From assembly GCA_040900105.1 (NCBI GenBank), contig JBBDZP010000053.1:3726-66875 (forward strand): a DNA stretch of 63,150 nt, read 5' to 3'. Shown here piece after piece: positions 1 through 63,150 of the stretch. This DNA is from Candidatus Levyibacteriota bacterium. Its GTDB lineage: Bacteria > Patescibacteriota > Microgenomatia > Levybacterales > UBA12049. The position numbers were made by a program, and so were the translations under genes. Under the pieces are notes generated by a model, which was not told the DNA's origin, ran no database searches, and worked only from the letters and a program-made list of their open reading frames with translations. Numbering within the stretch: the stretch's first letter is position 1; each line of letters opens with the position of its first letter.

Positions 1-128
1 ACCATCCCGTTCTGACTAAAGTAATTTTGTGAAAGCGCGAATGTCCAGACGTAGTAAGGAAGTTGAAACACAGCAAGATATGAAAACGCAGATGCGGCAA
101 TAAATATACCCAGTAGTTTTCTGGTCAT
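1..128 (-). CDS. 5' end of an unidentified, probably membrane, protein gene running off the left edge (partial)
   Basis: ATG at 128..126 opens a minus-strand frame that stays open to the window edge. My translation, MTRKLLGIFIAASAFSYLAVFQLPYYVWTF..., is hydrophobic. It is not in the ORF track and I recognise no family. Confidence 0.3.
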   Translation of the reverse strand, partial: MTRKLLGIFIAASAFSYLAVFQLPYYVWTFALSQNYFSQNGM

Positions 129-130
129 AA

Positions 131-838
131 ATGATATCTTCCTATGATATACTATCATGTGTGAATTTATCAATTATTCTACCGATCCTTAATGAGCAGG
201 AAGGAATTAGAGATTCTATTGCTGACATACTAAGCTATTCAAAGTATTTCTCTGAACTTGAAATAATAGCAGTTAATGACGGTTCTAAAGACAATACCCT
301 CTCCATTCTTGAGGATCTTAAAAAGAAAAATAAAAGGATTAAAATTGTAAGTCATAAAACAAATAGGGGTTATGGAGCGGCGCTTAGAAGCGGCATCAAA
401 AACTCTTCATATGACTGGGTATTTTTCACAGACGCGGATATGCAATTTGACATGAAGGAACTCCTGGGATTTTTACCTCATACCAAAAATTTTGATTTTA
501 TTGTTGGTTTTAGAGAAGGAAGAGCGGATCCACCTAAAGTAAAGTTTAGGTCATGGGTTTATAACAGACTCGTGCGAATGCTTTTTGGGCTCCCTCTAAA
601 AGATGTTGACTGCGCATTTAAGCTTATGAAAAAAACTGCCGTTTCAAAGATTCGTACATCTTCAAATAGTTTTTTTATAAGCGCAGAACTTATGACAAAA
701 GCTCACAAAAAAAGACTTAGGATTAAGGAAATTGGAGTAAAACACCGCCCAAGAAGGAAAGGAAAATCCACCGTGACAATAAAAAGAGTGCTACATACAA
801 TACTGGATCTTGTTAAACTAAGGTTATCTTACATATGA
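131..838 (+). CDS. GT2 glycosyltransferase, polyprenyl-phosphate sugar synthase-like (DPM1/GtrB/CsbB type), soluble form
   Basis: GT-A signatures LSIILPILNE, AVNDGSKDNT, GYGAALRSG and FTDADMQFD (DxD). About 235 aa with no C-terminal TM. Clear paralog of 60733..61443. GTG at 161 (VNLSIILP) is a possible alternative start. Its stop overlaps the next start (ATGA at 835..838). Confidence 0.8.
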   Translation: MISSYDILSCVNLSIILPILNEQEGIRDSIADILSYSKYFSELEIIAVNDGSKDNTLSILEDLKKKNKRIKIVSHKTNRGYGAALRSGIKNSSYDWVFFTDADMQFDMKELLGFLPHTKNFDFIVGFREGRADPPKVKFRSWVYNRLVRMLFGLPLKDVDCAFKLMKKTAVSKIRTSSNSFFISAELMTKAHKKRLRIKEIGVKHRPRRKGKSTVTIKRVLHTILDLVKLRLSYI

Positions 839-2112
839 AAGTTGCAATAATAGGTGCGGGCGTCACAGGTCTTGCCGCAGCTTGGGAGCTTAGTAAGAAA
901 GGTCACAAGGTTGTTGTATTCGAACGCTCAGAAGTTCCCGGAGGACTAGGTACCTACATCAAAGTAAAAAACAATTATGTAGAACGTTTTTATCACCATT
1001 TTTTTGAAAGCGATAGTGAGATAAAGAAAATGGCCAAAGAGCTTGGAATTTCCAGTAAGCTCAAATTTTACAAGGCAAAGACTGGAATATTTTCAGAGAA
1101 TAAGGTCTACCCATTCAGTTCTCCTTTTGATCTTTTAAGATTTAGCCCCCTTTCTTTTATTGACAGGCTAAGATGTGGACTAGCTACTGCATACTTGAAG
1201 TTTTTACCCTTTGCTCCTTACTCCTTGGACAAGACTCCGGCAGACAAATGGATTAAAAAGTATGAAGGAGAAACGGTTTACGAAAAAATATGGGGCCATC
1301 TTCTTGAGGGAAAATTTTCCAAATACTCAAGCAGGATTTCAGCCCTTTGGCTTTGGGGACGAGTCAAGGACAGAAGCCCCAAGCTCGGATATTTTGACGG
1401 AAGCGTAAAGATTCTCTTTGACAAGCTCATTGAAAGGATTAAAAAACAAGGAGGACAGATCAGGCTTGAGGCAGAAATTGGAGGAATTGAGAATAAGCAA
1501 GAAGGAATATTAATAAAAGGAACGGGCATTAGTGAACGATTTGATAAAGTAATAATTACAACTGTCTCCCCTATTGCAAACTTTTTAATAAAAGATGGGC
1601 TAAGTGATGAGTCTAGAAAAAAATTATCCTCAGTTGATCAATTAGGGGCAATTTGTCTAATTTTGGAATTAAAACATTCTATCCAATCGCAATACTGGTT
1701 AAATCTTTGCGATAAGAGGTCAAAAGTCCTGGTAATGGTAGAGCACACAAACATGATCGACAAGAAATACTACGGCGGAAGAACACTGGTTTATCTGGCA
1801 AATTACCTACATAGAAACGACCCGCGTTTCAAATTAACGGATGCTCAAGTTATAAAGCAGTACACGCAGATTTTAAAAGAGATTAACGGAAACTATAGAA
1901 ACTCTTGGATTTTGAAATCTTATATTTCCAGAGTGCCTCGCGCGCAAACAATTTTTAGCACCGGGGCGCTAAAAAAACTACCTCCTTTCAAAATATCCGA
2001 AAATATATACCTTGCAAATATTGACCAGATGTATCCGCATGACAGAAATCTTGACCAGGGTATAGAGTTGGGCAGGAAGGTAGCTGGGATGCTTCTGAAT
2101 AGAATTAACTAG
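835..2112 (+). CDS. FAD/NAD(P)-binding oxidoreductase (HemY/CrtI/amine-oxidase-like flavoprotein superfamily), substrate unknown
   Basis: N-terminal dinucleotide-binding fold MKVAIIGAGVTGLAAAWELSKKGHKVVVFE followed by PGGLG. 425 aa, soluble. Translationally coupled to the upstream GT2. Confidence 0.7.
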   Translation: MKVAIIGAGVTGLAAAWELSKKGHKVVVFERSEVPGGLGTYIKVKNNYVERFYHHFFESDSEIKKMAKELGISSKLKFYKAKTGIFSENKVYPFSSPFDLLRFSPLSFIDRLRCGLATAYLKFLPFAPYSLDKTPADKWIKKYEGETVYEKIWGHLLEGKFSKYSSRISALWLWGRVKDRSPKLGYFDGSVKILFDKLIERIKKQGGQIRLEAEIGGIENKQEGILIKGTGISERFDKVIITTVSPIANFLIKDGLSDESRKKLSSVDQLGAICLILELKHSIQSQYWLNLCDKRSKVLVMVEHTNMIDKKYYGGRTLVYLANYLHRNDPRFKLTDAQVIKQYTQILKEINGNYRNSWILKSYISRVPRAQTIFSTGALKKLPPFKISENIYLANIDQMYPHDRNLDQGIELGRKVAGMLLNRIN

Positions 2113-2114
2113 AT

Positions 2115-3782
2115 ATGCTTAATAAACTTATTATTGCATTCAGTTCCATAGCTACGGCTTCATTAGCGTGTTTTCTTTTATTTTTTCAATTTTTCCAACA
2201 GGATGAATGGCACGGCTTTGGAATTATTCTTTCTCAGGGAACACATTACATAACACTTAATAGATCTATTCCGGAACTTCTTTTGGGAGACAGGGTGGGC
2301 GCGCGTCTTCTAACATTTGGTCTATTTAATATTTTTCATTTAAATCCTCTACCCTATGGATTTATAGCGCTAACTTTGCATTTAGCAAACACGTTCCTGG
2401 TTTTTATACTTGCCCGAAAATTAACCAATAAAAAATCTATTGCCTTGCTATCTGCTCTATTCTTCATAGTTAACGAGGTGGGAAATGAAGCTTACGCTTG
2501 GTTTGGAACCATGAGTGGCTCTGCCGTCTCCGTTTTATTTTTTCTCATCTCTGCTTATTTTTTCTTAAGATTCATAGATACAAACAAAGTAAAATTCGCA
2601 GTAGTTTCAGCATTTATACTTTGGGTATCGTTTTTGTTTAAAGAGATAGCGGTTTTTGCCTTCGTCTTTTATCCTGTGCTCTTTTACCTCTACTCTCCTA
2701 AAAAGCTGAGTCCCCTAAAATTCATTAAAGCATATTCCCCTTTTTTAATTATTGCAACAGTTTTCTTATTGTATTTTGCAAAAACAGTCCTGTTTATCCC
2801 AGGAGACCAGGCAAATTATGTAGGTGCAAATGATTCATTTGTCCCCACACTTCTTGCACATATCGGGCAGTATCCATTAGAGGGCATGGTCCAAACATTC
2901 ATCCCAAATTTCTTTCTATTTATGCTCTCCCCTATTATTACAATGATCTTTGGTTTTCACATACCGAAAGACTCTCTAGAATTCCTTGTAGCAAGTCAAG
3001 GTCAGTACGCCGAATTGACAACGGTTCTTATCTTAATATCCGCAGTAGCAATGATCTTTTTTGTTCTTAGGAAAAGATGGAACAAGGTATCTCTTCTTTT
3101 TAAAAAAACACTGATATCTTCTTTATTGCTTACGGCGCTAAGTTTTATACCCTACATTGTTCTCAACAGGTCATTTGCCTATCTGGATTCAAGACACTAT
3201 TATATAGCTACAATAGGAGCATCTATCTTCCTAGCTACGCTTCTTTTTACTCTTTATCCATTAGTTAAAAGAAAAAGACAAATAATAGTCCTATTTATGG
3301 GAGCTATGTATCTAATCATACATAGCACAACTCTATTTATGGATTTTAAACTCCTGGGAGAAAGATCATATGAAAGACGGTTATTTCTTAAGCAAACACG
3401 ACAGCTAGTACCTAATTTGTCTGAAAAAACTGTGTTCTTTATAACAGGCGATTACGTAGGGTATTATGGATTACCGGAACTCAAGGTTCCTTTCCAGTCC
3501 GGTCTCGGGCACGTATTAATGGTTGTCTATGCAACGGATGAACAGTTAAATTCTAATTTCTTTAAAGAGGAGACCCTTATAAAAGCCCAGGATGTTGGGT
3601 TTTTATATGACATACTGGGTCAAGGGTACAGAGAGACAAACGGGCAAGGATTCGGATATTATCTTGATCGAACCGAACTACAGAAAGCCTTGGATAAAAA
3701 ATTATTTACAAAAGAAAATATCATTTCCTTATATTATGAGAGTGAAAAGAAAAGATTGATCAAAAAGAATAATGAATTTTAA
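2115..3782 (+). CDS. Polytopic membrane protein with GT-C-like layout (putative lipid-linked-sugar-dependent glycosyltransferase)
   Basis: 555 aa with many hydrophobic segments by eye. Acidic DE pair in the first loop (FQQDEWHG). Soluble C-terminal part of about 130 aa. Starts 3 nt after the oxidoreductase stop. Exact family not recognised. Confidence 0.5.
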   Translation: MLNKLIIAFSSIATASLACFLLFFQFFQQDEWHGFGIILSQGTHYITLNRSIPELLLGDRVGARLLTFGLFNIFHLNPLPYGFIALTLHLANTFLVFILARKLTNKKSIALLSALFFIVNEVGNEAYAWFGTMSGSAVSVLFFLISAYFFLRFIDTNKVKFAVVSAFILWVSFLFKEIAVFAFVFYPVLFYLYSPKKLSPLKFIKAYSPFLIIATVFLLYFAKTVLFIPGDQANYVGANDSFVPTLLAHIGQYPLEGMVQTFIPNFFLFMLSPIITMIFGFHIPKDSLEFLVASQGQYAELTTVLILISAVAMIFFVLRKRWNKVSLLFKKTLISSLLLTALSFIPYIVLNRSFAYLDSRHYYIATIGASIFLATLLFTLYPLVKRKRQIIVLFMGAMYLIIHSTTLFMDFKLLGERSYERRLFLKQTRQLVPNLSEKTVFFITGDYVGYYGLPELKVPFQSGLGHVLMVVYATDEQLNSNFFKEETLIKAQDVGFLYDILGQGYRETNGQGFGYYLDRTELQKALDKKLFTKENIISLYYESEKKRLIKKNNEF

Positions 3783-4401
3783 TAAGATCGTTGGTAGCTA
3801 TAAGGACGTACTGTATTACAAAAGTCTTGAAAAGGAGCTTAGAGGCTCGGCATCCGTTTTGGATGTCGGATGCGGGTCAGATTCACCGCTTTCTCATGTT
3901 AAAAAGACATTCATTAGTCATGGCATTGATGTTCACAGGCCAAGCGTCTTAAAAAGCAAGAAAAAGAAGATACACGACCAGTATACTACTGGAGATATAA
4001 CCAAGCTAAGTAAATACTTTAAACCTAAGTCCTTTGATGCGGTTGTAGCGCTGGATGTAATAGAACATTTCCCTAAAAACGAGTCCTATAAACTAATAAA
4101 GGACATGGAAAAAATTGCAAGAAAGAAAGTAATCCTTCTTACTCCAAATGGATTCTATCCCCAAGACGGATACGACAGTAATCCACACCAAATACATAGG
4201 TCGGGATGGAATACACAGGATCTAAGAAAAATCGGATATAAACTATACGGACTAAGAGGTCTAAAGTATTTACGAGGAGACTATGCGACACTAAAATATA
4301 AACCTTGGATTATTGTAGGAATTCTTGCTTTTATTTCAGAGCCGCTTTTATTTAACTGCCCAAGCCTTTCCTATGATCTTCTTGCAATAAAAGAAAAATA
4401 G
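3772..4401 (+). CDS. Class I SAM-dependent methyltransferase
   Basis: Motif I VLDVGCGSDSP and downstream AVVALDVIEHF. 209 aa. Overlaps the previous gene by 11 nt. Confidence 0.75.
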   Translation: MNFNKIVGSYKDVLYYKSLEKELRGSASVLDVGCGSDSPLSHVKKTFISHGIDVHRPSVLKSKKKKIHDQYTTGDITKLSKYFKPKSFDAVVALDVIEHFPKNESYKLIKDMEKIARKKVILLTPNGFYPQDGYDSNPHQIHRSGWNTQDLRKIGYKLYGLRGLKYLRGDYATLKYKPWIIVGILAFISEPLLFNCPSLSYDLLAIKEK

Positions 4402-4404: not shown

Positions 4405-5190
4405 TCACTTACTGTCTTTTGTGAAGACAAATAGGCCACACCCATAATTCAAGTTCCTATAATCTCTGTAATCAACTTTTTCATGAAAATTTCCTTCGTC
4501 ATCAACAACTGAGAAAGAGACCAGCTTTAAATCAGAAAAATAATAAAGAACTGTTTTTGGAGATAATATCCTATGCGCATTAAAGCATATCTTCTCTCTT
4601 CCCATAGGAACGGAGAAATATAAAAAGCCGTCTTCCTGAAGCACTCTACTTAGCTCCTTGCAAGCCTTTTCGGTGCCCTTTGGGTCTATGGGATCTCCGT
4701 ATCGCCCTAACCCTATGTGCTCCACCACATGAAGACACGATAGTGAGCTGATTGAATTATCTTTAAAGGGAAGGTTTAATATGTCTCCTTTTTTTATTTC
4801 AAGATTTTTAAGCTTGGCTTTAAAAGGCCGCAGGTCAACAAATGTTGTTTTTGTGATTTTGGATATATATCCTACCATTTCATACCTGGAAGCAACATCC
4901 ACATGGTGAGATGGCATAGTTTTTAATACATTTTCAAAAACCCATAACTGTTGATAGAAATAATGCGAATCAAACTCATCATGCAGAGTAGTTTTGTCTG
5001 ACAGTATTGGAAACAGATTCATGCCCAAAAGTTTTGCTGACGGATCCTTAATTTTATAACTCACCATGTCGCGCAAATACCATCCGTAACCGGTAACCCC
5101 TTTTACAAAACGTATTGGATCAAAAATTGGGGAACCAATGCGGTAAATTAAATATGCAATGTTCTTTTTTTTGGAATCAAAAACTCTCAT
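4405..5190 (-). CDS. SAM-dependent methyltransferase-like protein (possibly DUF268-type)
   Basis: SLSCLHVVEHIGLGRYGDPIDP and GFLYFSVPMG resemble the methyltransferase fold and what I recall of the DUF268 family. This needs HMM confirmation. Confidence 0.6.
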   Translation of the reverse strand: MRVFDSKKKNIAYLIYRIGSPIFDPIRFVKGVTGYGWYLRDMVSYKIKDPSAKLLGMNLFPILSDKTTLHDEFDSHYFYQQLWVFENVLKTMPSHHVDVASRYEMVGYISKITKTTFVDLRPFKAKLKNLEIKKGDILNLPFKDNSISSLSCLHVVEHIGLGRYGDPIDPKGTEKACKELSRVLQEDGFLYFSVPMGREKICFNAHRILSPKTVLYYFSDLKLVSFSVVDDEGNFHEKVDYRDYRNLNYGCGLFVFTKDSK

Positions 5191-5942
5191 ACTTTTGCAG
5201 GTCCCCTCTTGGTTGCTTTTATATATATAAAGCTTGATAGATTATTTACTAAAGGTAAATTGTTTACAAGTTTATTAACATAATAAACAGGATAAAAAGA
5301 ATTAATAAATCTTATAGGTAAAAATCCAAAATAAGATACTTCAATATTTTCCAGCCTCAATTTTTTAAATATTTTCCTTAGGTTCTTTTCCGAACTTTTC
5401 AAAAAAGTTTTCTCTATATTCCAGGAAGCTTGATCTGAAAAAAGATAGAAGGGGTAGAAGAAAGGATTAAGTGGATTGGGCTCAATAAGAACTATGGTAC
5501 CATTCTCTTTAATCGCCTCTACCAAATTAGCAAGAATCTTGACTCTATCTTTTTCTTTACTTGCCAAGAGATGAAATGTACTAATGCAATATGCGCCATC
5601 AAATTTATTATGATACGGTGGTTTTGAAAAGTCCGAACAAAGTAGCGTAAGGTTCTTATCTAATTTTTTCTCTTTAGCAATTTGAAGCAAAATCTCATTG
5701 GAATCCTTAGATATATCAACTCCTGTAACCCGGTGACCACGCTTCAAAAGTCCCAATACGAATTTTCCGTAACCCGACCCCAATTCAACAACAGATGAGC
5801 CCTTCTTAAGGTTAAGAAATCTAAAGAATTTATCAAATTCCAGGTCTCTTGCCTTAGAAGGTATATACATATTCTTTTTTCTTCTCTGGGCAAATTCATC
5901 AAAAAATTTTTCTGTTTTTTTTCTGTACTTATTTTTATCCAT
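5187..5942 (-). CDS. Class I SAM-dependent methyltransferase
   Basis: Motif I VVELGSGYGKF, then HRVTGVDIS and GTIVLIEPN. 4-nt overlap with the downstream gene. Confidence 0.75.
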   Translation of the reverse strand: MDKNKYRKKTEKFFDEFAQRRKKNMYIPSKARDLEFDKFFRFLNLKKGSSVVELGSGYGKFVLGLLKRGHRVTGVDISKDSNEILLQIAKEKKLDKNLTLLCSDFSKPPYHNKFDGAYCISTFHLLASKEKDRVKILANLVEAIKENGTIVLIEPNPLNPFFYPFYLFSDQASWNIEKTFLKSSEKNLRKIFKKLRLENIEVSYFGFLPIRFINSFYPVYYVNKLVNNLPLVNNLSSFIYIKATKRGPAKV

Positions 5943-12017: not shown

Positions 12018-12052
12018 AATTATTGGATTATTATACACTATCTTGAGGCTAA

Positions 12053-20190: not shown

Positions 20191-20205
20191 CAAAAATTAA
20201 CACAT

Positions 20206-52971: not shown

Positions 52972-53073
52972 AAGCTTATTCTAGCAACTTTTATCCCCGC
53001 CCGCCATAGCCTTGCCCAGACATTATGAGCGGACATATTGCAAAGCTTATAAAGGTATGATAATCTTAGCTTG

Positions 53074-53316
53074 ATGAATCCTTTCTCAGCGATTCCAAGC
53101 GCATTTCCGCCCTTAACATACCTTGTAATTTTGGTCTGGTCTCTTTTTTGGAAAGGACTTGCTCTATGGAGAGCGGCAAAATATGACCAAAGGAACTGGT
53201 TTATCGTAATTTTAATTGTTAATTTGGCGGGAATTTTAGAAATTATATATCTCTTTGGATTTGCTAAGAAAAAGCTTAGATTTTCCGAGCTAAAAATTTG
53301 GGAAACAAAGAAATAA
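53074..53316 (+). CDS. Small two-TM membrane protein, DUF5652-like
   Basis: LVILVWSLFWKGLALWRAAKYDQRNWFIVILIVNLAGILEIIYLF matches my memory of the DUF5652 pattern (W-K-G-x-A-L-W-x-A-A ... LGILEIIYL). The track uses the TTG at 53071; the ATG is at 53074. Its 3' end overlaps the convergent YfhO gene by 41 nt. Confidence 0.6.
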   Translation: MNPFSAIPSAFPPLTYLVILVWSLFWKGLALWRAAKYDQRNWFIVILIVNLAGILEIIYLFGFAKKKLRFSELKIWETKK

Positions 53317-57473: not shown

Positions 57474-58386
57474 TCTTATAACTCCCTTTCCCAAATTTCC
57501 CTTGGTAGAAATCCATAATTCCTTTTTTTTGCCATTTTCTTCCAGACCTAAGTAACCTTGCGCTTTCTCTAAGTAGTGCAAGTTTTGAACGCAGGGGAGC
57601 ATAGCGCATCCCAAACAACATTCTGTTACGCGTAATATAGTAATCCTGCAAAGGAGATCCTGATCCGCCTGCTGAGCCGGCATTTTTATGCCAGATTACT
57701 GCCTTAGGGGCGTATAATATCTTAATTCCCCTTTTTCTTGTTCTCTGAGACAAATCATTATCTTCATAATAAAGGAAGTATTTCTTATCAAACATTCCTA
57801 CTTTTTCCAAAGTTTTTTTTGTTATAAGCATACAGCACCCGCTAACGTACTCGGTTTCGCAAGTTTCGCTGTATTGTCCTTTGTCAATCTCATCAACGCC
57901 CCTATGGTACCCTATGACATTCTTCCATTCCATTTCGCCTCCCGCGTACCAAAAAATTTTCCCTAAGTCTTTTGGACTATATCTTTCTTTGTGATATTCA
58001 AATCCTTTCGCAAAATAGATCTTGGGACCAACAATTCCTGCTTTTGGGTCTTTTTCCGCAGCTTGAACCATTTCGTAAACAAAATTTTTGCTGAGCTCGG
58101 TATCGTTGTTTAAGATAATTACATAGTCTGCGCCGGCAGAAAGCGCATATCTAATCCCTACGTTATGTCCTTCTGCAAATCCCAAATTTTCGCTGTTTCT
58201 TATAAAAATGAGGGGAATATTTTTAAGAAAGTCTTTGTCGATATCGAACTTTTCCTCGGAAGCGTTGTCTATTACTACTACCGTTGCCTTAAAATCTTTA
58301 ATCTTGATTTTGTCTAGTTCCCGTAAACAAGCAAGGGTATTTTCTCTTCCGTTGAAGTTAATTATAGAAATGAAAACATTTTTCAT
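57466..58386 (-). CDS. GT2 glycosyltransferase (rhamnosyltransferase/WbbL-like type)
   Basis: VFISIINFNGRENTLACL, VVIDNASEE, ILNNDT and YYEDNDLSQR. Confidence 0.8.
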   Translation of the reverse strand: MKNVFISIINFNGRENTLACLRELDKIKIKDFKATVVVIDNASEEKFDIDKDFLKNIPLIFIRNSENLGFAEGHNVGIRYALSAGADYVIILNNDTELSKNFVYEMVQAAEKDPKAGIVGPKIYFAKGFEYHKERYSPKDLGKIFWYAGGEMEWKNVIGYHRGVDEIDKGQYSETCETEYVSGCCMLITKKTLEKVGMFDKKYFLYYEDNDLSQRTRKRGIKILYAPKAVIWHKNAGSAGGSGSPLQDYYITRNRMLFGMRYAPLRSKLALLRESARLLRSGRKWQKKGIMDFYQGKFGKGSYKNE

Positions 58387-59291
58387 TATTTGCGGAAAAA
58401 GGCTTTATAGAAGATTTTTTTGGCAGGATTTTTTGTGTTTTTAATTTTTTCATTTCTTAGCCAGAATTTTAATTCTTTGCTTGCGGTTTGCATCTCATGA
58501 GTCGTTTTTTGGAGAATATTTCCTTTCTCAATTTCAGAGAAACCCTGTTTTTCCCAAACAAAAGCAAAAACACACAAATGGTAAAATGCCATAAGAAGTG
58601 AGAGCATAAGTCCATGAAATCCATCTCTATAGCCCTCTTGAGCAAAGAAGCGTGCAAGAAATTCCTTTAGCGGAAATTTTATTGCGTCCGCGAAATTTAC
58701 TTTATATCCCTTATTTATCAACACTTCGGCCTCATTGGGAACATAAATATTGCTCATTTTGTACAGAAACTGGGAGACAGTTTGATAGTTGTAGTGAAGC
58801 ATGGGCTCAGAAAGAGTACCTACTTCTCCGTTAACCTTAACCATTTCGTGCACATGCTTTTCTTCGAATTTACCCTTTGCACGCCTAAACAACCGAAGCT
58901 GCGGATCCGGATACCAGCCCGTATGCTCTATCCACTTGCCAAAGATTATATTTTTTCTTGGAATAAAGTATCCATCAAACTTTCCTACGCTGACTTTTAG
59001 CACTTCTTTTATTTCTTTTTCAAGCTCCGTAGTCACTCTTTCATCGTCGTCCAGACACAATATCCATTCGCCTGTTGCTTTGGAAAATCCGTAATTCTTA
59101 TTTACGTTAAGCATTGGATTATTAGGACGATCGAAGATTTTCGAGGTATATTTTTTTGCGATTTCTACAGTTTTATCGGATGAAGAATTATCAACCAAAA
59201 TAATTTCATCGGCAAATCGGATCGATTTGAGGCAATCTTCAATTTTATCCTGTGCGTTATAGGCAGAGATAACAACAGAAAGTCTGGTCAT
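58386..59291 (-). CDS. GT2 glycosyltransferase (WaaE/KdtX-like type), paralog C
   Basis: LSVVISAYNAQDKIEDCL, ILVDNSSSDKT, LDDDERV, YFIPRKNIIFGKW and DGFHGLMLS. It has no heptamer array in the loop where paralogs A and B have one. Confidence 0.8.
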   Translation of the reverse strand: MTRLSVVISAYNAQDKIEDCLKSIRFADEIILVDNSSSDKTVEIAKKYTSKIFDRPNNPMLNVNKNYGFSKATGEWILCLDDDERVTTELEKEIKEVLKVSVGKFDGYFIPRKNIIFGKWIEHTGWYPDPQLRLFRRAKGKFEEKHVHEMVKVNGEVGTLSEPMLHYNYQTVSQFLYKMSNIYVPNEAEVLINKGYKVNFADAIKFPLKEFLARFFAQEGYRDGFHGLMLSLLMAFYHLCVFAFVWEKQGFSEIEKGNILQKTTHEMQTASKELKFWLRNEKIKNTKNPAKKIFYKAFFRK

Positions 59292-60746
59292 TTATTTTTG
59301 CAGATTTGCTTTGACCAACTTGAAATCTTCCACCATTTGGCTTCGGGCCAAAGCAAGCATTGTAAGAAAGTATATCACAACACCCAGTATAATCATAAAA
59401 ATAAGAGTTGGAAAATCTTTGACTACATGCGGACTAAGCAAGTACACAACTGTACCCATAAGTAATGCCGAAAACGCGGGGTAACCGGTAATTTTTACTA
59501 TACTAAAATTAATATGTTGCTTAACTAAATAAACAACACCTACAACAGAGGTGGCAATAATTGCCGACGCAATAGAAACACCATTAAATCCGTACATATA
59601 AATAGCTAACGGAGTTAAAATCCAGGTTGCGCCGGTCCAGAAAATCATTAGATAGAGCGTTGTTTTTATTTTTCCTATTGCGTTTAGAGCATTTGTTAGT
59701 GGCGTTGACACGCACGAGAGTGCTGCGTTCAGCGAAAAGAAGGCAAGAGAAAAAAGAGCCGGCTCCCATTTAATATACTTGGGAATTAGGTTTACAAAAT
59801 ACGGAGACATTACAACAAGGCCTATAAGGGCAGGAAAAACAATAAGGCATGAGGCAAATATAGCTTTCTCTATTCCCTTTCCGAGCGTTTCCTTTTCACG
59901 CTGAAGGCGGGAGAAGGACGGAAAAGTTATTCTTATAACATTGTCCATAACGAGCCGAAGCGGCATAAGTGCCCATTTTTGAGCAAAGCCGATATATCCT
60001 ACTTGCGCAAGAGGCAAGACTTTCCCGATATAGACTATTAGTAAGTCGTCTTTAAGGAGTGCCAGAAAGCTATTGGCTTGAAATGGAATTCCAAATGAAA
60101 GCAATCTTCTTGCCGCAGGCTTTGAGAAAGAAAACCCGATCCTCCATGGATTTATCAGGTAAATTGTGATAACTCCACCAATTCCTCTAAGAAGTACCGC
60201 AACCGCAAAGCTTAAAACTCCAAATCCCGCCATTGCGAGAACAACTGCGCTGATATTAAAAAGAAGTGTTTCTACGATTTGTGGGACAACAAGTTTCTCA
60301 AACCGCAGCTCCCTTTCCAAAATTATAGAGGGAATAGTTTTAAATGAAGACAAAAAAAATGCTACAACCAGTGCTCTAAGAAGCCATAAGCCGTTTTCTT
60401 CCAGATTATAGAAAGAGGCAATCGTCCCTGACAGAAGAAGAGCAATCGCACAAACAATAGTTACCAGAACTTGCTGAATCGTAAAAGTTGTTCTTAGTTC
60501 TTCCCGGGTCGGGGACTCCTTTTTTTGTATGAGTGCGGCAGCAAGGCCAATGTCAGAAAAGTAAGAAAGAAATGCAATTGCCGCAGAAACGACAAAGAAA
60601 ATTCCAAAAACAGAAGGAGACAAATAAATTGTAAGAAGAAGAGTAGAGACAAATCCTACTAATTGAACAAAAAAAGTCCTCGAGGTTAAGGCAAAAATTC
60701 CCCTTATGGATCTCTTCGTGACTAGAGCAATATCAACTTCTTCCAT
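59292..60746 (-). CDS. Wzx-like MOP-superfamily flippase (oligosaccharide/polysaccharide flippase family)
   Basis: 484 aa, about 12-14 helices. The N-terminal KRSIRGIFALTSRTFFVQLVGFVSTLLLTIYLSPSVFGIF...GLAAALIQKKE is typical of Polysacc_synt-type transporters. Confidence 0.7.
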   Translation of the reverse strand: MEEVDIALVTKRSIRGIFALTSRTFFVQLVGFVSTLLLTIYLSPSVFGIFFVVSAAIAFLSYFSDIGLAAALIQKKESPTREELRTTFTIQQVLVTIVCAIALLLSGTIASFYNLEENGLWLLRALVVAFFLSSFKTIPSIILERELRFEKLVVPQIVETLLFNISAVVLAMAGFGVLSFAVAVLLRGIGGVITIYLINPWRIGFSFSKPAARRLLSFGIPFQANSFLALLKDDLLIVYIGKVLPLAQVGYIGFAQKWALMPLRLVMDNVIRITFPSFSRLQREKETLGKGIEKAIFASCLIVFPALIGLVVMSPYFVNLIPKYIKWEPALFSLAFFSLNAALSCVSTPLTNALNAIGKIKTTLYLMIFWTGATWILTPLAIYMYGFNGVSIASAIIATSVVGVVYLVKQHINFSIVKITGYPAFSALLMGTVVYLLSPHVVKDFPTLIFMIILGVVIYFLTMLALARSQMVEDFKLVKANLQK

Positions 60747-61443
60747 AATGTAAATCTTTCCACAGGACCAAGCTTTCCCTTATTGCTCTTATTATTACCC
60801 TTGCATTTCCGCCGCTCTGGTTTCCGTATTTTCTTGGATAGTGTGACACCTGTGCTTGCTCTACTTTAAGATTTTTCTTTCTTGCTTTTGCCAAAATCTC
60901 CGTTGTTATCATTGCGCCTTCTGACTTAAGAGGCATAAGCTTTCTGAGTGCTTCCTTTCTAAAAAGCTTAAAACCACAGTCTATGTCTTTAAAGTAAAGA
61001 CCAAACAAAACAAAATCCCAGATTTTTAAAAGGTTCATTAAAACGTGTCTGAAAGGATGGTCTAGTCTTCTTTTTCTAAAGCCTATAACCATGTCCGCAT
61101 TGTTAATCTTGGCAAGTAGCCTGGAAACTTCACCAAAATCAAATTGTCCGTCGCCATCGATGAAAACTACAAGATTGTATTTTGCGCTTGAGAAACCATG
61201 CTTTAGCGCCGCCCCATATCCTCTGTTTCTGGGATCTGCAACAACAACCAGATGAGAATCTTTCTGGGCAAGTTCTTTCGCAATTTTGAGAGTACTATCA
61301 GATGAGCCATCATCCACCATAATAATTTCCCACTTTGAAGCTACTTTTTGGGCAACAGGAATGGCTTTTCTTACAACCTTTTCTATGTTTTCTTCTTCGT
61401 TCCAGAATGGGAAGAAAATTGAAAGCTCAGGAACCTTGTCCAT
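60733..61443 (-). CDS. GT2 polyprenyl-phosphate sugar synthase-like glycosyltransferase (DPM1/GtrB type), soluble form
   Basis: LSIFFPFWNEEENI, MVDDGSSDST, GYGAALKHG, FIDGDGQFD and DIDCGFKLF. Paralog of 131..838. Confidence 0.8.
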   Translation of the reverse strand: MDKVPELSIFFPFWNEEENIEKVVRKAIPVAQKVASKWEIIMVDDGSSDSTLKIAKELAQKDSHLVVVADPRNRGYGAALKHGFSSAKYNLVVFIDGDGQFDFGEVSRLLAKINNADMVIGFRKRRLDHPFRHVLMNLLKIWDFVLFGLYFKDIDCGFKLFRKEALRKLMPLKSEGAMITTEILAKARKKNLKVEQAQVSHYPRKYGNQSGGNARVIIRAIRESLVLWKDLHYGRS

Positions 61444-63139
61444 ATTGTGTTTTTTTCTTAAATCGGATTATACCAACAATTATAGCTGCTAATCCAGCAA
61501 ATGAAATCAAATTTGCGATTTTTGCTGTGTTGCTTTCCTTAAATTTCATTTCCACCCGATGATTTCCGCTGGGCAAAGAAACGTCATATCCCTTACTCAC
61601 AATGCTTCCCTGTGGTACTCCGTCAACAGACAACTTCCAGGAAGGAAAATATGCTATATTGAAATGGATTTTAGTAGGCCGTGCTGCTTTTAAATTAAGA
61701 TCAATAACATGTGTTTTTTCTGTTCTGTTAATAATTTCAATGTCATTGGGGTTAAAAGTTACTCTTTCTCTTACGACATCGTCCTCATTTGTTGGTTTGG
61801 GAAAGTCTTTGGGCATATATTCATCTGAAATTTTTGATGTAAGCCACCTGAGAGTTTGCATATTTGTATAATCATCTGCAGCCTTACCCAGAATTGTCTG
61901 GGGAATAAAAAACTTAACATTTATAAGTAAGATTGCTACTATAATGGCTCCCGAAATTAAGCATTCCGTCCATTCATTCCTAACAGTTTTATGCATAACC
62001 CACAATAGTGATCCGGAGAGGATGGACGTAAAAAATGATGTCATGAGTAAAAATCTCCAGGGGAATTGAAAAAAGGCCATAAGGGAAATAGCGCTCCATA
62101 GGGGCTGCGAAAGAGGAAGCATAAGAAAGATCGAGAATAAGAGTCCGACTACACAAAACAGCATAATTACCACTTTCTCCTCTTTTCCTGAAATCTTTTT
62201 AAGAATTGAAAGTGCTATTATTGCGGCAGTCGCAAAAAGTGAAAGAATTATGTGTATTTTACCAATCATAAATGATGCCCCATCTATGCACCCCGGAGCA
62301 GAACCTCCAAACCCCCATTGACTCTGCCAGAGCTGGTAGACGCACACAAAATGGTCATTAAAATGAGCACCTCCTCCTATTTGAGACAGGATATTTGTAT
62401 ATCTTTGCTCCAAAAGCGCAGGAATAAAATAAAAGGCGGAAAGAGCAAGACCTAAAACAAAAGCGTACAGCGAATAGCGCATAGTGGACAGTTCCTTTTT
62501 TTTGACAGCGATATAACAATAGGACAATATAACAATTAGAATGAACGGCGTAACCATCATTGCTGTCAGATTATGTGAAAGTATTATCCCGGCATACCCA
62601 AGCGCTCCTACTACTATCCACTTGAAATTACCTTTTGTTTTGTAAACTTTGTAAAAACCAAGAAACGCAAGAGGTATAAATGCATATGCCCAAAACTCCG
62701 TGACATCTCCTCTTACATAAATGTCTACAGCGTGAAAAGGGGCATATACATAAAGCAGCGCCGAGACTATACCACCCAGCTTTCCCCAAAACTCCTTTGC
62801 CAGAAAATACATAAAAAGTCCGGACAGCAGAATGCCTAAGCCCATCATTATCTTAGTTGCCGCAAGCGCATCAAACCCTAAAAACTCAAAGGCCGAACCT
62901 ACATAATAAGCAAATGGTGCATAAAAACTAAAAATTGGATAACCGTAACCATATCCTAAATCTGCAACCCATCTCACGGGAAATATCCCATCTTTGAGCG
63001 ATTTTGTCATTTCGTATACCCTTGCAACCTGCGTGTCATCGTGAATGGGAAAAAACCCGGGAATAAAAAGAGGCTTAATGGCCCAATAGGATAAAAGAGT
63101 AACGACTGCTATTGGAACAATTATTTTAAAAAACTTCAT
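61427..63139 (-). CDS. PTPS-related/YfhO-like GT-C-type integral membrane protein (paralog 4 of 4)
   Basis: IHDDTQVARV, FPVRWVADLGYGYGYPIFSFYAPFAYY, APFHAVDIYVRGDVTE, FQFPWRF and YFPSWKLSVDGVPQ...LPSGNHRV plus a final TM. 17-nt overlap with the downstream GT2. Confidence 0.7.
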   Translation of the reverse strand: MKFFKIIVPIAVVTLLSYWAIKPLFIPGFFPIHDDTQVARVYEMTKSLKDGIFPVRWVADLGYGYGYPIFSFYAPFAYYVGSAFEFLGFDALAATKIMMGLGILLSGLFMYFLAKEFWGKLGGIVSALLYVYAPFHAVDIYVRGDVTEFWAYAFIPLAFLGFYKVYKTKGNFKWIVVGALGYAGIILSHNLTAMMVTPFILIVILSYCYIAVKKKELSTMRYSLYAFVLGLALSAFYFIPALLEQRYTNILSQIGGGAHFNDHFVCVYQLWQSQWGFGGSAPGCIDGASFMIGKIHIILSLFATAAIIALSILKKISGKEEKVVIMLFCVVGLLFSIFLMLPLSQPLWSAISLMAFFQFPWRFLLMTSFFTSILSGSLLWVMHKTVRNEWTECLISGAIIVAILLINVKFFIPQTILGKAADDYTNMQTLRWLTSKISDEYMPKDFPKPTNEDDVVRERVTFNPNDIEIINRTEKTHVIDLNLKAARPTKIHFNIAYFPSWKLSVDGVPQGSIVSKGYDVSLPSGNHRVEMKFKESNTAKIANLISFAGLAAIIVGIIRFKKKTQYGQGS

Positions 63140-63150
63140 GATTTTCTATA

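What the first reader, a model, noticed from the sequence alone, without database searches (positions are those of the whole stretch)
1..63150. 63 kb of almost uninterrupted glycosylation genes with about 18 GT-C-like polytopic membrane proteins
By my reading, 18 of about 55 genes encode large multi-TM proteins with the hallmarks of lipid-carrier-dependent extracytoplasmic glycosyltransferases. The hallmarks are an acidic motif in the first loop and PMT/ArnT/YfhO-like signatures. Their starts are 2115, 13565, 27084, 28694, 31333, 33569, 35202, 36839, 38521, 40215, 41967, 43640, 45296, 46516, 49658, 53276, 55600 and 61427.

They are interleaved with 11 GT2, 5 GT4, 2 Wzx-like flippases, nucleotide-sugar enzymes and 5 methyltransferases, with no housekeeping genes. 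Ordinary O-antigen, capsule or teichoic-acid loci carry zero to two GT-C enzymes. This looks like a combinatorial machinery for decorating extracellular acceptors (cell wall polymers, S-layer, pili or lipids).

The AT-rich sequence, pervasive gene overlaps and DUF5652/DUF5667-like small proteins suggest a CPR/Patescibacteria-type organism. Such loci are essentially uncharacterised there.
Basis: partly seen in the sequence, partly recalled or inferred. Interest (0 to 1): 0.7.

Follow-up and report, generated by a model that had tools for sequence, protein, structure and literature searches.

The report
Giant surface-sugar gene cluster in Levybacteria
An ultra-small uncultured bacterium (Candidatus Levyibacteriota) fills this whole 63 kb stretch with sugar-building genes, including 18 membrane enzymes that attach sugars outside the cell; the same cluster is conserved across its relatives, and I found no paper in the searched library describing it.

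Summary
The window holds 54 complete genes, all glycan-related or lineage-specific unknowns. The 18 listed genes are all polytopic GT-C-type enzymes:
- 12 reach a Pfam gathering score (PMT_2/PMT, PTPS_related, YfhO).
- 3 score just below it (31333, 46516, 45296), and 1 has only a weak MptA-like hit (28694). All four are tied to the others by profile-profile comparison.
- 2 have no Pfam or NCBIfam family (2115, 55600). Their confident AlphaFold models match only GT-C structures.

Also present are 11 GT2, 5 GT4, 2 Wzx-like flippases, 5 methyltransferases, 8 nucleotide-sugar enzymes, 2 DUF5667 genes and 1 DUF5652 gene. One GT2 is a full-length ArnC/GtrB homologue and three are small ArnC/Dol-P-hexose-synthase-like.

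The source is a Candidatus Levyibacteriota MAG. The cluster is not peculiar to it. All 80 best related loci, from Levy-, Gottesman-, Roizman- and Woesebacteria, carry 2-14 GT-C genes (4-14 in the fifty full-length ~21 kb loci) in conserved order. Two other Levybacteria genomes are collinear with parts of the window.

Best reading: a lineage-conserved system for glycosylation outside the membrane that uses polyprenyl-phosphate-sugar donors, with a fixed core and a variable set of accessory GT-Cs. The acceptor and the flippase are unknown. I rate it a new variant of a known kind, apparently undescribed in the searched literature.

The parts
1..127 (-). N-terminal 42 codons of a further membrane protein that runs off the left end
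   Evidence: Read directly from the sequence. The locus probably continues to the left.
131..838 (+). GT2, 235 aa, small ArnC/PpgS/Dol-P-hexose-transferase-like (candidate polyprenyl-P-sugar synthase)
   Evidence: Pfam PF00535 101.8 bits; NCBIfam ArnC, PpgS and Dol-P-hexose transferase, all below their cut-offs.
835..2112 (+). FAD oxidoreductase, amine-oxidase/phytoene-desaturase family
   Evidence: PF01593 94.5 bits; NF005560 419 bits. A homologue lies in the relative's locus L085.
2115..3782 (+). GT-C enzyme of a family seen here almost only in Patescibacteria records, with no Pfam model; invariant QQDEW after TM1
   Evidence: No Pfam or NCBIfam hit. Family alignment A2. AF2 pLDDT 90.5. Foldseek matches GT-C structures. 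hhalign 96-97.5% to PMT_2-like groups.
3772..4401 (+). SAM methyltransferase
   Evidence: PF08241.
4405..5190 (-). Methyltransferase (DUF268/Methyltransf_11)
5187..5942 (-). SAM methyltransferase
   Evidence: PF13649 and PF08241.
5935..7137 (-). GT4-type (GT-B) glycosyltransferase
   Evidence: PF00534 86.4 bits.
7100..8041 (-). NAD-dependent sugar epimerase/reductase
   Evidence: PF01370 166 bits.
8043..9128 (-). NDP-hexose 4,6-dehydratase (GDP-mannose dehydratase family)
   Evidence: PF16363 208.5 bits.
9115..10197 (-). DegT-type sugar aminotransferase
   Evidence: PF01041 338 bits.
10201..11307 (-). NAD-dependent epimerase/dehydratase. The true start is probably downstream: 326 aa in the Logan gene call.
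   Evidence: PF01370; gene calls.
11178..12038 (-). GT2
   Evidence: PF00535 88 bits.
12053..12616 (+). DUF5667 protein with an N-terminal hydrophobic segment (signal or anchor)
   Evidence: PF18915 31.8 bits; sequence.
12616..13542 (+). GtrB/ArnC-type polyprenyl-phosphate glycosyltransferase (GT2 domain plus C-terminal hydrophobic segments, consistent with the two TM helices of the ArnC/GtrB type)
   Evidence: PDB ArnC 9hwj E=1.4e-48, full length; GtrB 5ekp E=1e-28. NCBIfam ArnC 181 bits. Hydrophobic segments.
13565..15637 (-). GT-C, PMT_2 type, 690 aa, WDE motif
   Evidence: PF13231 37.3 bits; motif.
15735..16490 (+). SAM methyltransferase
   Evidence: PF08241 75.9 bits.
16492..17811 (-). 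Sulfatase-family protein without TM segments
   Evidence: PF00884 153.9 bits.
17827..19002 (-). DegT-type sugar aminotransferase
   Evidence: PF01041 441.6 bits.
19006..20193 (-). GFO/IDH/MocA sugar oxidoreductase
   Evidence: PF01408 and PF22725.
20260..21057 (-). SAM methyltransferase
   Evidence: PF08241.
21063..22295 (-). GT4-type glycosyltransferase
   Evidence: PF00534 135.9 bits.
22292..23410 (-). GT4-type glycosyltransferase
   Evidence: PF00534 139 bits.
23394..24662 (-). Wzx-like MOP flippase
   Evidence: PF13440, PF01943 and MatE.
24666..25427 (-). GT2
   Evidence: PF00535 58 bits.
25393..25962 (-). RmlC-like cupin (dTDP-sugar isomerase family)
   Evidence: PF00908 41 bits.
25993..27087 (-). 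GT4-type glycosyltransferase, syntenic in most relatives
   Evidence: PF00534 103 bits; 32 of 50 loci.
27084..28721 (-). GT-C, group A (PTPS_related with a YfhO C-terminal match)
   Evidence: PF10131 60.7 bits and PF09586 37.7 bits; paralogy.
28694..29830 (-). GT-C, GT87/MptA-like, 378 aa
   Evidence: TIGR03459 E=5e-6; hhalign 96.3% to the 45296 family.
29827..30354 (-). DUF5667 protein, syntenic in relatives
   Evidence: PF18915 E=1.3e-4, below gathering; synteny.
30351..31319 (-). NDP-sugar epimerase
   Evidence: PF01370 194 bits.
31333..32823 (-). GT-C, group C (PMT_2-like)
   Evidence: PF13231 24.7 bits, just under gathering; hhalign 91-97% to group B.
32820..33587 (-). GT2, paired with 33569 in 49 of 50 related loci
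   Evidence: PF00535 77.6 bits.
33569..35200 (-). GT-C, group A (PTPS_related)
   Evidence: PF10131 41.3 bits; more than 2000 homologues.
35202..36842 (-). GT-C, group B (PMT_2)
   Evidence: PF13231 29.2 bits; alignment A1, DE motif.
36839..38521 (-). GT-C, group B (PMT_2/PMT), core gene
   Evidence: PF13231 46.7 bits and PF02366 27.9 bits. Present in 50 of 50 loci by construction, since it is the search anchor.
38521..40158 (-). GT-C, group B (PMT_2/PMT), core gene
   Evidence: PF13231 58.8 bits and PF02366 49.2 bits; 50 of 50 loci.
40215..41987 (+). GT-C, PMT_2 type, accessory (2 of 50 loci)
   Evidence: PF13231 33.5 bits.
41967..43655 (-). GT-C, group B (PMT_2/PMT)
   Evidence: PF13231 42.7 bits and PF02366 30.1 bits.
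43640..45295 (-). GT-C, group A (PTPS_related)
   Evidence: PF10131 27.6 bits.
45296..46540 (-). GT-C, GT87-like, 414 aa
   Evidence: PF09594 23.6 bits, under the gathering score of 25. The syntenic gene in L087 has a recorded GT87 hit.
46516..48048 (-). GT-C, group C (PMT_2-like)
   Evidence: PF13231 24.9 bits; hhalign 93-97% to group B.
47999..48709 (-). GT2, 236 aa, AglJ/ArnC/DPMS-like (candidate polyprenyl-P-sugar synthase)
   Evidence: PF00535 128 bits; NCBIfam AglJ 126 bits; PDB ArnC and DPMS.
48706..49656 (-). GT2 with a C-terminal TM helix
   Evidence: PF00535 97 bits.
49658..51916 (-). GT-C, YfhO family, 752 aa
   Evidence: PF09586 76.5 bits.
51913..52971 (-). GT4-type glycosyltransferase
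   Evidence: PF00534 69 bits.
53071..53316 (+). DUF5652 small 2-TM protein. It replaces the probably spurious ORF 52968-53483(-).
   Evidence: PF18893 81.7 bits. Same position in L005, L019, L031, L041, L056 and L088.
53276..55603 (-). GT-C, YfhO family, 775 aa
   Evidence: PF09586 105.9 bits.
55600..56748 (-). Short GT-C (382 aa, ArnT-like membrane core, no C-terminal domain)
   Evidence: No Pfam hit itself, but homologues carry PF13231. AF2 pLDDT 87. ArnT 5F15 TM 0.65.
56724..57683 (-). GT2
   Evidence: PF00535 60.6 bits.
57466..58386 (-). GT2
   Evidence: PF00535 51.8 bits.
58386..59291 (-). GT2
   Evidence: PF00535 81.6 bits.
59292..60746 (-). Wzx-like MOP flippase
   Evidence: PF13440 178 bits.
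60733..61443 (-). GT2, 236 aa, ArnC/PpgS-like (candidate polyprenyl-P-sugar synthase). It overlaps the stop of GT-C 61427, and the pair is conserved in L089.
   Evidence: PF00535 100.9 bits; NCBIfam ArnC 86.5 bits.
61427..63139 (-). GT-C, group A (PTPS_related)
   Evidence: PF10131 36.6 bits.

Best explanation
The window is most of a lineage-conserved super-locus of Candidatus Levyibacteriota (Microgenomates, Patescibacteria). I propose it builds cell-surface glycan largely on the outer face of the cytoplasmic membrane.

Proposed steps:
1. Cytoplasmic enzymes make unusual nucleotide sugars (amino, deoxy and probably O-methylated). These enzymes are a 4,6-dehydratase, epimerases, two DegT aminotransferases, a GFO/MocA oxidoreductase, an RmlC-like cupin and five methyltransferases.
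2. GT4 and GT2 enzymes assemble one or two lipid-linked oligosaccharides, which the two Wzx-like proteins flip.
3. One GtrB/ArnC-type GT2 and three small Dol-P-hexose-synthase-like GT2 enzymes load single sugars onto polyprenyl phosphate.
4. After flipping by a component not yet identified, the 18 GT-C enzymes transfer those sugars to acceptors outside the membrane. They fall into three families: PMT_2-like, YfhO/PTPS_related and GT87-like. A conserved core set acts as a fixed pathway, and a variable accessory set differs between genomes.

The favoured acceptor is a wall-associated heteropolysaccharide. The logic is that of mycobacterial arabinan/mannan assembly and streptococcal or Gram-positive side-chain glycosylation.

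Shown here: the gene families, the fold of the two orphan GT-Cs, the taxonomy, the synteny and the core/accessory pattern. Inferred: donor type, topology of catalysis, order of steps and acceptor.
For: - GT-C identity of all 18.
- First-loop Asp/DE motifs.
- g12616 is a full-length ArnC/GtrB homologue. Three 235-aa GT2 enzymes resemble ArnC, AglJ, PpgS and Dol-P-hexose transferases.
- Overlapping GT2/GT-C gene pairs recur in relatives: 60733 with 61427, and 32820 with 33569 (49 of 50 loci).
- Two Wzx-like proteins, five GT4 and the nucleotide-sugar enzymes.
- No housekeeping genes and about 100% coding density, with operon-like overlaps.
- Conservation: all 80 best genome loci are Patescibacteria-type. 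Each has 2-14 GT-C homologues (4-14 in the 50 full-length loci). Of ORFs of at least 150 aa in those loci, 54% are GT-C and 87% have a homologue in the window.
- Two other Levybacteria genomes are collinear with parts of the window. In GCA_016186645.1 both ends of a span of at least 85 kb match the window's two ends; the middle was not fetched. In GCA_016182235.1 a contiguous 41 kb matches.
- Paralogues are old (29-41% identity), and there are no DNA repeats or invertible elements.
Against: - No biochemical data exist for any member.
- The window has no GtrA-like or ArnE/F-like flippase, no priming phosphoglycosyl transferase, no recognisable Wzy polymerase or ligase, no LCP ligase and no teichoic-acid synthase. 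The pathway as drawn is therefore incomplete within the window.
- Four GT-C assignments rest on sub-threshold HMM scores plus profile-profile links.
- Foldseek TM-scores for 2115 are modest (0.3-0.43).
- Group B also matches PF02366, the protein O-mannosyltransferase family, so protein acceptors are equally compatible.
Confidence: 0.55

Rival explanations
1. The GT-C array is mainly a protein O-glycosylation system, like actinobacterial Ppm1/Pmt or the Streptococcus mutans Pgf system. It would decorate S-layer proteins, pilins or other secreted proteins with oligosaccharides built sugar by sugar outside the membrane.
For: - Group B (36839, 38521, 41967) passes Pfam's PMT (PF02366) gathering score and has the DE motif.
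- NCBI names homologues 'glycosyltransferase family 39'.
- g12616 also matches PgfS at 140 bits.
- Some distant 2115 homologues carry an extracellular discoidin domain.
- From the literature: CPR cells appear Gram-positive-like, with pilus-related families prominent and sortase near-ubiquitous in Microgenomates (PMC6744442).
Against: - PMT_2 and PMT profiles do not separate protein-, lipid- and glycan-directed GT-Cs; ArnT is the best structural match of 55600.
- YfhO and GT87 relatives known so far act on teichoic acids or lipoglycans (family knowledge).
- No obvious acceptor protein is encoded: the two DUF5667 proteins have no Ser/Thr-rich tracts.
- Two Wzx-like proteins and five GT4 point to a lipid-linked oligosaccharide or polymer.
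Confidence: 0.25
2. The locus is a set of independent three-component-style modules that decorate several different acceptors combinatorially. It would serve mainly to diversify the surface against phages or to set host specificity, not to build one conserved structure.
For: - The accessory GT-C content differs between genomes. Within 10 kb of the anchor, 40215 is in 2 of 50 loci, 31333 in 5, 43640 in 10, 41967 in 10, 35202 in 15 and 46516 in 14.
- The closest relative, L003, lacks 41967, 43640, 46516 and 31333.
- Relatives carry other GT-C families absent here, such as DUF2079 and many weak 46516-like genes.
- Several GT2/GT-C pairs look like self-contained modules.
Against: - The core order 38521-36839-...-33569-32820-...-28694-27084-25993 is kept from Levy- to Gottesman-, Roizman- and Woesebacteria.
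- Orthologues diverge at ordinary rates (40-70% identity).
- There are no repeats, mobile elements or invertible switches, and no compositional island.
Confidence: 0.15
3. Many of the GT-C-like proteins are not sugar transferases. They could be, for example, transporters, polymerases or ligases for diphosphate-linked glycans, or inactive scaffolds.
For: - No activity has been tested.
- No Wzy or ligase was recognised, so some GT-C-like proteins could fill that role.
- The best Foldseek hits of 2115 are oligosaccharyltransferases, which use diphosphate-linked donors.
Against: - Transporters and GPCRs get Foldseek probability of 0.25 or less, against about 1.0 for GT-C enzymes.
- The first-loop acidic residues are invariant within the families aligned.
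- WaaL-type ligase scores only 0.20 probability against 55600.
Confidence: 0.05

Closest known systems
Mycobacterial arabinogalactan/LAM assembly (EmbA/B/C, AftA-D, MptA/B, PimE, with the Rv3779-Rv3809c cluster)
   Same: Many different GT-C enzymes act in sequence outside the membrane on polyprenyl-phosphate-monosaccharide donors. They extend a lipid-linked primer made in the cytoplasm by GT2/GT4-type enzymes. Several of the GT-C genes are clustered. GT87-like (MptA/PimE-type) and PMT_2-like members occur here too, and AftA/AftB/AftD/PimE appear among the structural matches.
   Different: No DprE1/DprE2/UbiA-type decaprenyl-P-arabinose pathway and no Emb-type (Arabinose_trans) Pfam hits were found. 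From my own knowledge, the mycobacterial cluster holds about six GT-Cs in about 35 kb of a 4.4 Mb genome; here there are 18 in 63 kb. Relatives' single contigs reach 0.6-1.2 Mb, so the genome is probably about 1 Mb. The phylum and envelope differ, and the YfhO/PTPS_related families dominate here.
Three-component glycosylation systems: GtrA/GtrB/GtrC, ArnC/ArnT (with ArnE/F) and CsbB/GtcA/YfhO
   Same: A GT2 polyprenyl-P-sugar synthase is paired with a GT-C transferase. g12616 is a full-length ArnC/GtrB homologue next to GT-C 13565. Two genes meet Pfam's YfhO threshold.
   Different: No GtrA/GtcA or ArnE/F-type flippase lies in the window. There is no lipid A or teichoic-acid machinery. There are 18 GT-Cs against about four candidate donor synthases, instead of a 1:1:1 arrangement.
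Streptococcal rhamnopolysaccharide side-chain systems and the S. mutans Pgf system (PgfS/PgfM1/PgfM2/PgfE)
   Same: A GtrB-like GT2, one or two GT-C membrane enzymes and an epimerase are embedded in a glycan locus of a monoderm. g12616 matches NCBIfam PgfS at 140 bits.
   Different: That score is far below the equivalog cut-off of 500. Those systems have one or two GT-Cs and a defined acceptor (rhamnan, or the adhesins Cnm and WapA). No rhamnan ABC-transporter pathway is present here.
Wzx/Wzy-dependent O-antigen or capsule loci
   Same: Nucleotide-sugar genes, GT2/GT4 enzymes and Wzx-like flippases sit in one operon-like block.
   Different: No Wzy, chain-length regulator, ligase or priming transferase was recognised. 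From my own knowledge, such loci hold zero to two GT-Cs.

Membership tests
GT-C glycosyltransferase superfamily (fold and clan) | Polytopic membrane core (about 8-13 TM helices) | tested here: met
   The Kyte-Doolittle scan finds many hydrophobic segments in all 18. The AF2 models of 2115 and 55600 are helical bundles.
GT-C glycosyltransferase superfamily (fold and clan) | Significant match to a GT-C clan family model | tested here: met
   12 of 18 reach Pfam gathering scores (PMT_2, PMT, PTPS_related, YfhO). Three are just below (31333, 46516, 45296). 28694 has only a weak MptA-like hit. 2115 and 55600 have none. The gaps are closed by hhalign links of 91-97.5% and by homologues' Pfam hits. 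That PTPS_related belongs to the GT-C clan is from my memory of Pfam, not tested; the hhalign link to YfhO (98-99.8%) supports it.
GT-C glycosyltransferase superfamily (fold and clan) | GT-C fold by structure comparison | tested here: met
   Done only for the two orphans. The high-probability matches of 2115 and 55600 are almost all GT-C enzymes. The other 16 were not modelled.
GT-C glycosyltransferase superfamily (fold and clan) | Conserved acidic residue in the first extracytoplasmic loop | tested here: met
   DE is invariant in group B, QQDEW in the 2115 family and P-D67 in the 55600 family. HD(G/D) occurs in group A, and an Asp is present in the rest (read by eye). The side of the membrane was not tested.
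GT-C glycosyltransferase superfamily (fold and clan) | Use of a polyprenyl-phosphate-linked sugar donor | not testable with these tools
   This needs enzymology. It is supported only indirectly, by the adjacent ArnC/GtrB-like GT2 genes.
Gtr/Arn/CsbB-YfhO three-component systems | GtrB/ArnC/CsbB-type polyprenyl-P glycosyltransferase | tested here: met
   g12616 against ArnC 9hwj: E=1.4e-48, residues 4-297 of 308.
Gtr/Arn/CsbB-YfhO three-component systems | Small GtrA/GtcA or ArnE/F flippase encoded alongside | tested here: not met
   No such Pfam hit in any gene, and no unassigned coding space. The only small multi-TM protein is DUF5652.
YfhO-type teichoic-acid glycosylation | YfhO family membership | tested here: met
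   49658 scores 76.5 bits and 53276 scores 105.9 bits, against a cut-off of 28.5.
YfhO-type teichoic-acid glycosylation | Teichoic-acid synthesis genes (TagF/TarL/LtaS type) as the source of the acceptor | tested here: not met
   None in the window. The sulfatase-family protein 16492 has no TM domain and only 21 bits to the LtaS model. The rest of the genome was not seen.
Protein O-mannosyltransferase (GT39/PMT) | PF02366 match with the DE motif | tested here: met
   36839, 38521 and 41967 pass the gathering score of 22.7 (27.9, 49.2 and 30.1 bits). DE motif.
Protein O-mannosyltransferase (GT39/PMT) | Ser/Thr of secreted proteins as the acceptor | not testable with these tools
   No acceptor can be read from the sequence.
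Wzx/Wzy-dependent polysaccharide locus | Wzx flippase | tested here: met
   23394 and 59292 match Polysacc_synt/Polysacc_synt_3.
Wzx/Wzy-dependent polysaccharide locus | Wzy polymerase and a priming phosphoglycosyl transferase | tested here: not met
   No Wzy_C/O-antigen-polymerase or WecA/WbaP-type hit in the window. They could lie elsewhere in the genome.
Mycobacterial arabinan-type pathway | Decaprenyl-P-arabinose pathway (DprE1/E2, UbiA) and Emb/Aft-type Pfam families | tested here: not met
   No such hits. The FAD enzyme 835 belongs to the amine-oxidase/phytoene-desaturase family, not the DprE1 type.

The most novel reading that the evidence does not exclude
Microgenomates (Levy-, Gottesman-, Roizman- and Woesebacteria) build their main envelope glycopolymer almost entirely outside the membrane. 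They would use the largest clustered GT-C assembly line known: at least 16-18 enzymes in a super-locus of 60 kb or more, roughly 5-10% of a genome of about 1 Mb. The line would include a GT-C family found so far almost only in Patescibacteria and lacking any Pfam or NCBIfam model (the 2115 type, QQDEW motif). It would depend on lineage-specific small proteins in place of the canonical GtrA/ArnEF flippase and other accessory factors: DUF5652, which is syntenic with the YfhO pair, and DUF5667, which is syntenic inside the core.
Probability: 0.2. Interest if true: 0.8.

Novelty: new variant of a known kind. Interest (0 to 1): 0.6.

Why it matters
CPR/Patescibacteria make up a large share of bacterial diversity. 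They are thought to live attached to host cells, and their envelopes are almost unknown biochemically.

A conserved block that may take up 5-10% of a roughly 1 Mb genome, dominated by enzymes that glycosylate outside the membrane, says that an elaborate surface glycan is central to the biology of the Microgenomates lineages. Possible roles are attachment, protection or host specificity.

The block gives concrete targets:
- GT2/GT-C pairs for heterologous assays.
- A GT-C family with no existing model.
- DUF5652 and DUF5667 as candidate accessory factors.

It also gives a genomic marker for the lineage. For glycobiology it would be the densest known natural collection of GT-C paralogues, which is useful for learning what sets their donor and acceptor specificity.

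Tried and rejected
- **Flanks of the source contig.** The NCBI contig is 75,473 bp. Exact-protein look-ups returned only fragmented Logan contigs of SRR27977660 with no extra context, so the locus boundaries remain unknown.
- **Sequence search of PDB.** Profiles of group B, the 2115 family, the 55600 family and YfhO 53276 found no GT-C or otherwise credible match; the only hit at E<=1 was a ricin-B lectin at E=0.51 for the 2115 profile. Only fold comparison worked.
- **Function of FAD enzyme 835.** PDB sequence search shows only generic phytoene-desaturase/amine-oxidase similarity. I considered a DprE1-like or UDP-galactopyranose-mutase-like role, but nothing supports either.
- **DUF5667 proteins as glycosylation acceptors.** Rejected as an obvious reading because they lack Ser/Thr-rich tracts.
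- **Recent duplication, mobile island or phase-variable switch.** Rejected. Paralogues share only 29-41% identity. The only repeats are short stretches, about 24-45 nt; the largest families fall within paralogous GT-C genes. GC is flat, and there are no tRNA or Rfam elements.
- **Transporter identity for the polytopic proteins.** Rejected.
- **Literature.** Seven searches and three papers read found no description of GT-C arrays in CPR. The nearest statements are '29 genes of glycosyl transferases' in a Microgenomates genome (PMC7143001) and 35 Microgenomates-enriched, mostly hypothetical families, 14 of them membrane-located (PMC6744442).
- **A first all-against-all hhalign run** timed out and was repeated with timeouts.

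Full report
**What is in the window.** The longest-ORF listing gives 54 non-nested genes that cover essentially 100% of the 63,150 bases. Of the 53 junctions, 33 overlap, and only six gaps exceed 20 nt. GC is flat at 0.34-0.39. There are no tRNA genes, Rfam elements or long repeats. Nearly all genes from 63,139 down to 16,492 lie on the minus strand in operon-like order.

One listed ORF, 52968-53483(-), has no family hit and looks like junk sequence. The real gene there is an 81-aa, two-helix DUF5652 protein at 53071-53316(+) (Pfam 81.7 bits). Overlaps above 100 nt are artefacts of choosing the longest ORF, since the independent gene calls on the Logan contigs are shorter. The first 127 bases encode, on the minus strand, the N-terminus of another membrane protein that runs off the window.

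**Are the 18 proteins GT-C enzymes?** Yes. All are polytopic.

Pfam places them as follows:
- Six in PMT_2/PMT at or above gathering: 13565, 35202, 36839, 38521, 40215, 41967.
- Two in PMT_2 about 1.3 bits below gathering: 31333, 46516.
- Four in PTPS_related, two of them (27084, 33569) with a YfhO C-terminal match: 27084, 33569, 43640, 61427.
- Two in YfhO: 49658, 53276.
- One in GT87, 1.4 bits below gathering: 45296.

Three had no Pfam hit even at E<=10:
- **28694** has a weak MptA-like NCBIfam hit (E=5e-6). Its family profile matches that of 45296 at 96.3% hhalign probability.
- **55600** is identical to NCBI protein WD992_03275. Many of its 198 homologues carry PF13231 and the name 'glycosyltransferase family 39'. 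Its AlphaFold2 model (pLDDT 87) superposes on ArnT 5F15 with TM 0.65 and rmsd 4.3 A, and the high-probability matches are GT-C enzymes.
- **2115** (WD992_03050) belongs to a family found here almost only in Patescibacteria records. Most members have no Pfam domain, a few distant ones hit PMT_2/PMT, and some carry a C-terminal discoidin domain. A QQDEW motif directly after the first helix is invariant or nearly so. The model has pLDDT 90.5. Its high-probability Foldseek matches are almost all GT-C enzymes (STT3/PglB/AglB, ArnT, ALG12, Pmt4, AftA/B/D, PimE), with one GPI-transamidase subunit among them, while transporters score 0.25 or less; the TM-scores are only 0.3-0.43. Its profile matches the PMT_2-like groups at 96-97.5%.

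An Asp or DE pair is seen in the putative first loop of all 18. It is invariant where I built alignments.

BLASTP and hhalign sort the 18 into old paralogue groups with 29-41% identity:
- Group A: 27084, 33569, 43640, 61427.
- Group B: 35202, 36839, 38521, 41967.
- Group C: 31333, 46516.
- Group D: 49658, 53276.
- Singletons: the remaining six.

Groups A and D join at 98-99.8% probability. Groups B and C, 40215 and 2115 join at 73-99% probability (most links at or above 88%). 28694 and 45296 join with each other.

**The rest of the locus**.
- 11 GT2 and 5 GT4-type enzymes.
- 2 Wzx-like MOP proteins.
- 5 SAM methyltransferases.
- Nucleotide-sugar enzymes: a 4,6-dehydratase, four epimerase/reductase-type enzymes, two DegT aminotransferases, a GFO/MocA oxidoreductase and an RmlC-like cupin.
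- A cytoplasmic sulfatase-family protein and an FAD oxidoreductase of the phytoene-desaturase/amine-oxidase family.
- Two DUF5667 proteins and DUF5652.

There are no housekeeping genes.

Among the GT2 enzymes, 12616 (308 aa, C-terminal hydrophobic segments) is a full-length homologue of ArnC (E=1.4e-48) and GtrB. Genes 131, 47999 and 60733 (235-236 aa) resemble ArnC, AglJ, PpgS and Dol-P-hexose synthases. These four are the likely makers of polyprenyl-phosphate-monosaccharide donors.

Not found in the window: a GtrA-like or ArnE/F-like flippase, a priming phosphoglycosyl transferase, a Wzy polymerase or ligase, an LCP ligase, and teichoic-acid synthases.

**Origin and relatives.** The window is part of a 75,473-bp contig of an NCBI MAG named Candidatus Levyibacteriota bacterium. 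The same genome appears in fragments in Logan run SRR27977660.

A scan of one genome per GTDB species with the group-B alignment found at least 571 relatives. The best 80 loci are all Patescibacteria: Levy-, Gottesman-, Roizman- and Woesebacteria and 'Microgenomates'. Many TPA records among them are titled 'uncultured Gammaproteobacteria', which I take to be mislabelling. The best identity is 70%.

Each of these loci contains 2-14 homologues of the window's GT-Cs, with 4-14 in the fifty full-length (~21 kb) loci and a median of 7.5. Of their ORFs of at least 150 aa, 54% are GT-C and 87% have a homologue in the window.

The following order recurs across these candidate phyla:

45296 - (41967/40215) - 38521 - 36839 - 35202 - 33569 - GT2 32820 - epimerase 30351 - DUF5667 29827 - 28694 - 27084 - GT4 25993

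In 50 full-length loci:
- 38521 and 36839 are always present. They are the search anchor, so this is by construction.
- GT2 32820 is in 49.
- 49658 is in 36, 25993 in 32 and 33569 in 29.
- 40215 is in 2, 31333 in 5, 43640 and 41967 in 10 each, 46516 in 14 and 35202 in 15.

Two other Levybacteria genomes are collinear with parts of the window:
- **GCA_016186645.1:** the 55600 homologue lies at 6.3 kb and the 2115 homologue at about 74 kb of one contig. The same flanking modules occur at both ends, and further glycan genes lie beyond. The middle of the span was not fetched.
- **GCA_016182235.1:** a contiguous 41 kb holds about 16 GT-C or GT-C-like genes, including a DUF2079 member that is absent from the window.

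DUF5652 sits in the same place, divergent and upstream of the GT4-YfhO pair, in six relatives.

**Interpretation.** By family knowledge, GT-C enzymes take sugars from polyprenyl-phosphate carriers on the outer face of the membrane. The window combines several features:
- four candidate donor synthases;
- overlapping GT2/GT-C gene pairs that are conserved in relatives;
- two Wzx/GT4/GT2 blocks;
- enzymes for amino, deoxy and methylated sugars.

Together these fit a factory for surface glycan. A lipid-linked oligosaccharide or polymer would be made inside and flipped. It, or another acceptor, would then be extended and decorated outside by a fixed core of GT-Cs plus a genome-specific accessory set.

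The nearest functional analogues are mycobacterial arabinan/mannan assembly, streptococcal and Gram-positive side-chain glycosylation (GtrB-like enzyme plus GT-C, and CsbB/YfhO), and the Pgf and Pmt protein O-glycosylation systems.

I cannot decide between a polysaccharide and a protein acceptor. Group B meets the PMT family threshold, while ArnT is the best structural match for 55600. The flippase for the monosaccharide carriers is also unidentified.

**Novelty.** Seven full-text searches and three papers read found nothing linking CPR/Patescibacteria or Microgenomates to GT-C, YfhO, GT39, GT83 or GT87 arrays. The only near statements are a count of 29 glycosyl transferase genes in one Microgenomates genome (PMC7143001) and a note that 35 Microgenomates-enriched families are mostly hypothetical, 14 of them membrane-located (PMC6744442). 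The library covers only open-access papers and preprints, so a description elsewhere cannot be excluded.

The components are of known kinds. What is new is the scale and clustering, the conservation across a large uncultured lineage with genomes of about 1 Mb, and the 2115-type GT-C family that has no model. I therefore rate it a new variant of a known kind, with interest 0.6.

Noticed in passing
window 52968-53483 (-) and 53071-53316 (+): The 171-aa minus-strand ORF has no family hit and is probably spurious. The real gene there is an 81-aa, two-helix DUF5652 protein on the + strand (Pfam 81.7 bits). It sits divergently upstream of the GT4 (51913) and YfhO (49658) pair, and it is in the same place in L005, L019, L031, L041, L056 and L088.
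   Followed up: yes
window 1-127 (-): This is the N-terminus (MTRKLLGIFIAASAFSYLAVF...) of another membrane protein that runs off the left end. The locus probably continues, since the source contig is 75,473 bp against a window of 63,150 bp.
   Followed up: partly
window 835-2112 (+); L085 4317-5600: An FAD oxidoreductase of the phytoene-desaturase/amine-oxidase family (NF005560, 419 bits) lies between a donor-synthase-like GT2 and GT-C 2115. A homologue is also in the relative's locus. It might modify a lipid-linked sugar or the polyprenol, but nothing tested here says which.
   Followed up: partly
window 16492-17811 (-): A sulfatase-family protein with no membrane segment sits at the end of the Wzx/GT4 operon. 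Its role there is unexplained.
   Followed up: no
loci L005, L015, L021, L023 and many others: Dozens of TPA genome records titled 'uncultured Gammaproteobacteria bacterium' carry arrays collinear with those of Levy- and Gottesmanbacteria at 40-58% identity. These record titles are probably wrong.
   Followed up: no
proteins P0179, P0188, P0189 and others: Distant homologues of GT-C 2115 are about 690 aa long and carry a C-terminal discoidin (F5/8 type C) domain. This fits an extracellular, carbohydrate-facing role.
   Followed up: no
L089 18132-19538; L004, L014 and L018 downstream of the 36839 orthologue: Relatives carry further GT-C-type genes with no close counterpart in the window: a DUF2079 member, and runs of up to four genes that hit 46516 at only 25-65 bits. 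The lineage's GT-C repertoire is therefore larger than the 18 seen here.
   Followed up: partly
window 12053-12616 (+) and 29827-30354 (-): Two DUF5667 proteins have an N-terminal hydrophobic segment (signal or anchor) and no Ser/Thr-rich tracts. The second is syntenic between the epimerase and GT-C 28694 in many relatives. Their function is unknown.
   Followed up: partly
window 10201-12038, 56724-58386: The overlaps of 130 and 218 nt between neighbouring genes come from taking the longest ORF. Independent gene calls on the Logan contigs start 10201 and 11178 further downstream (326 and 279 aa).
   Followed up: partly
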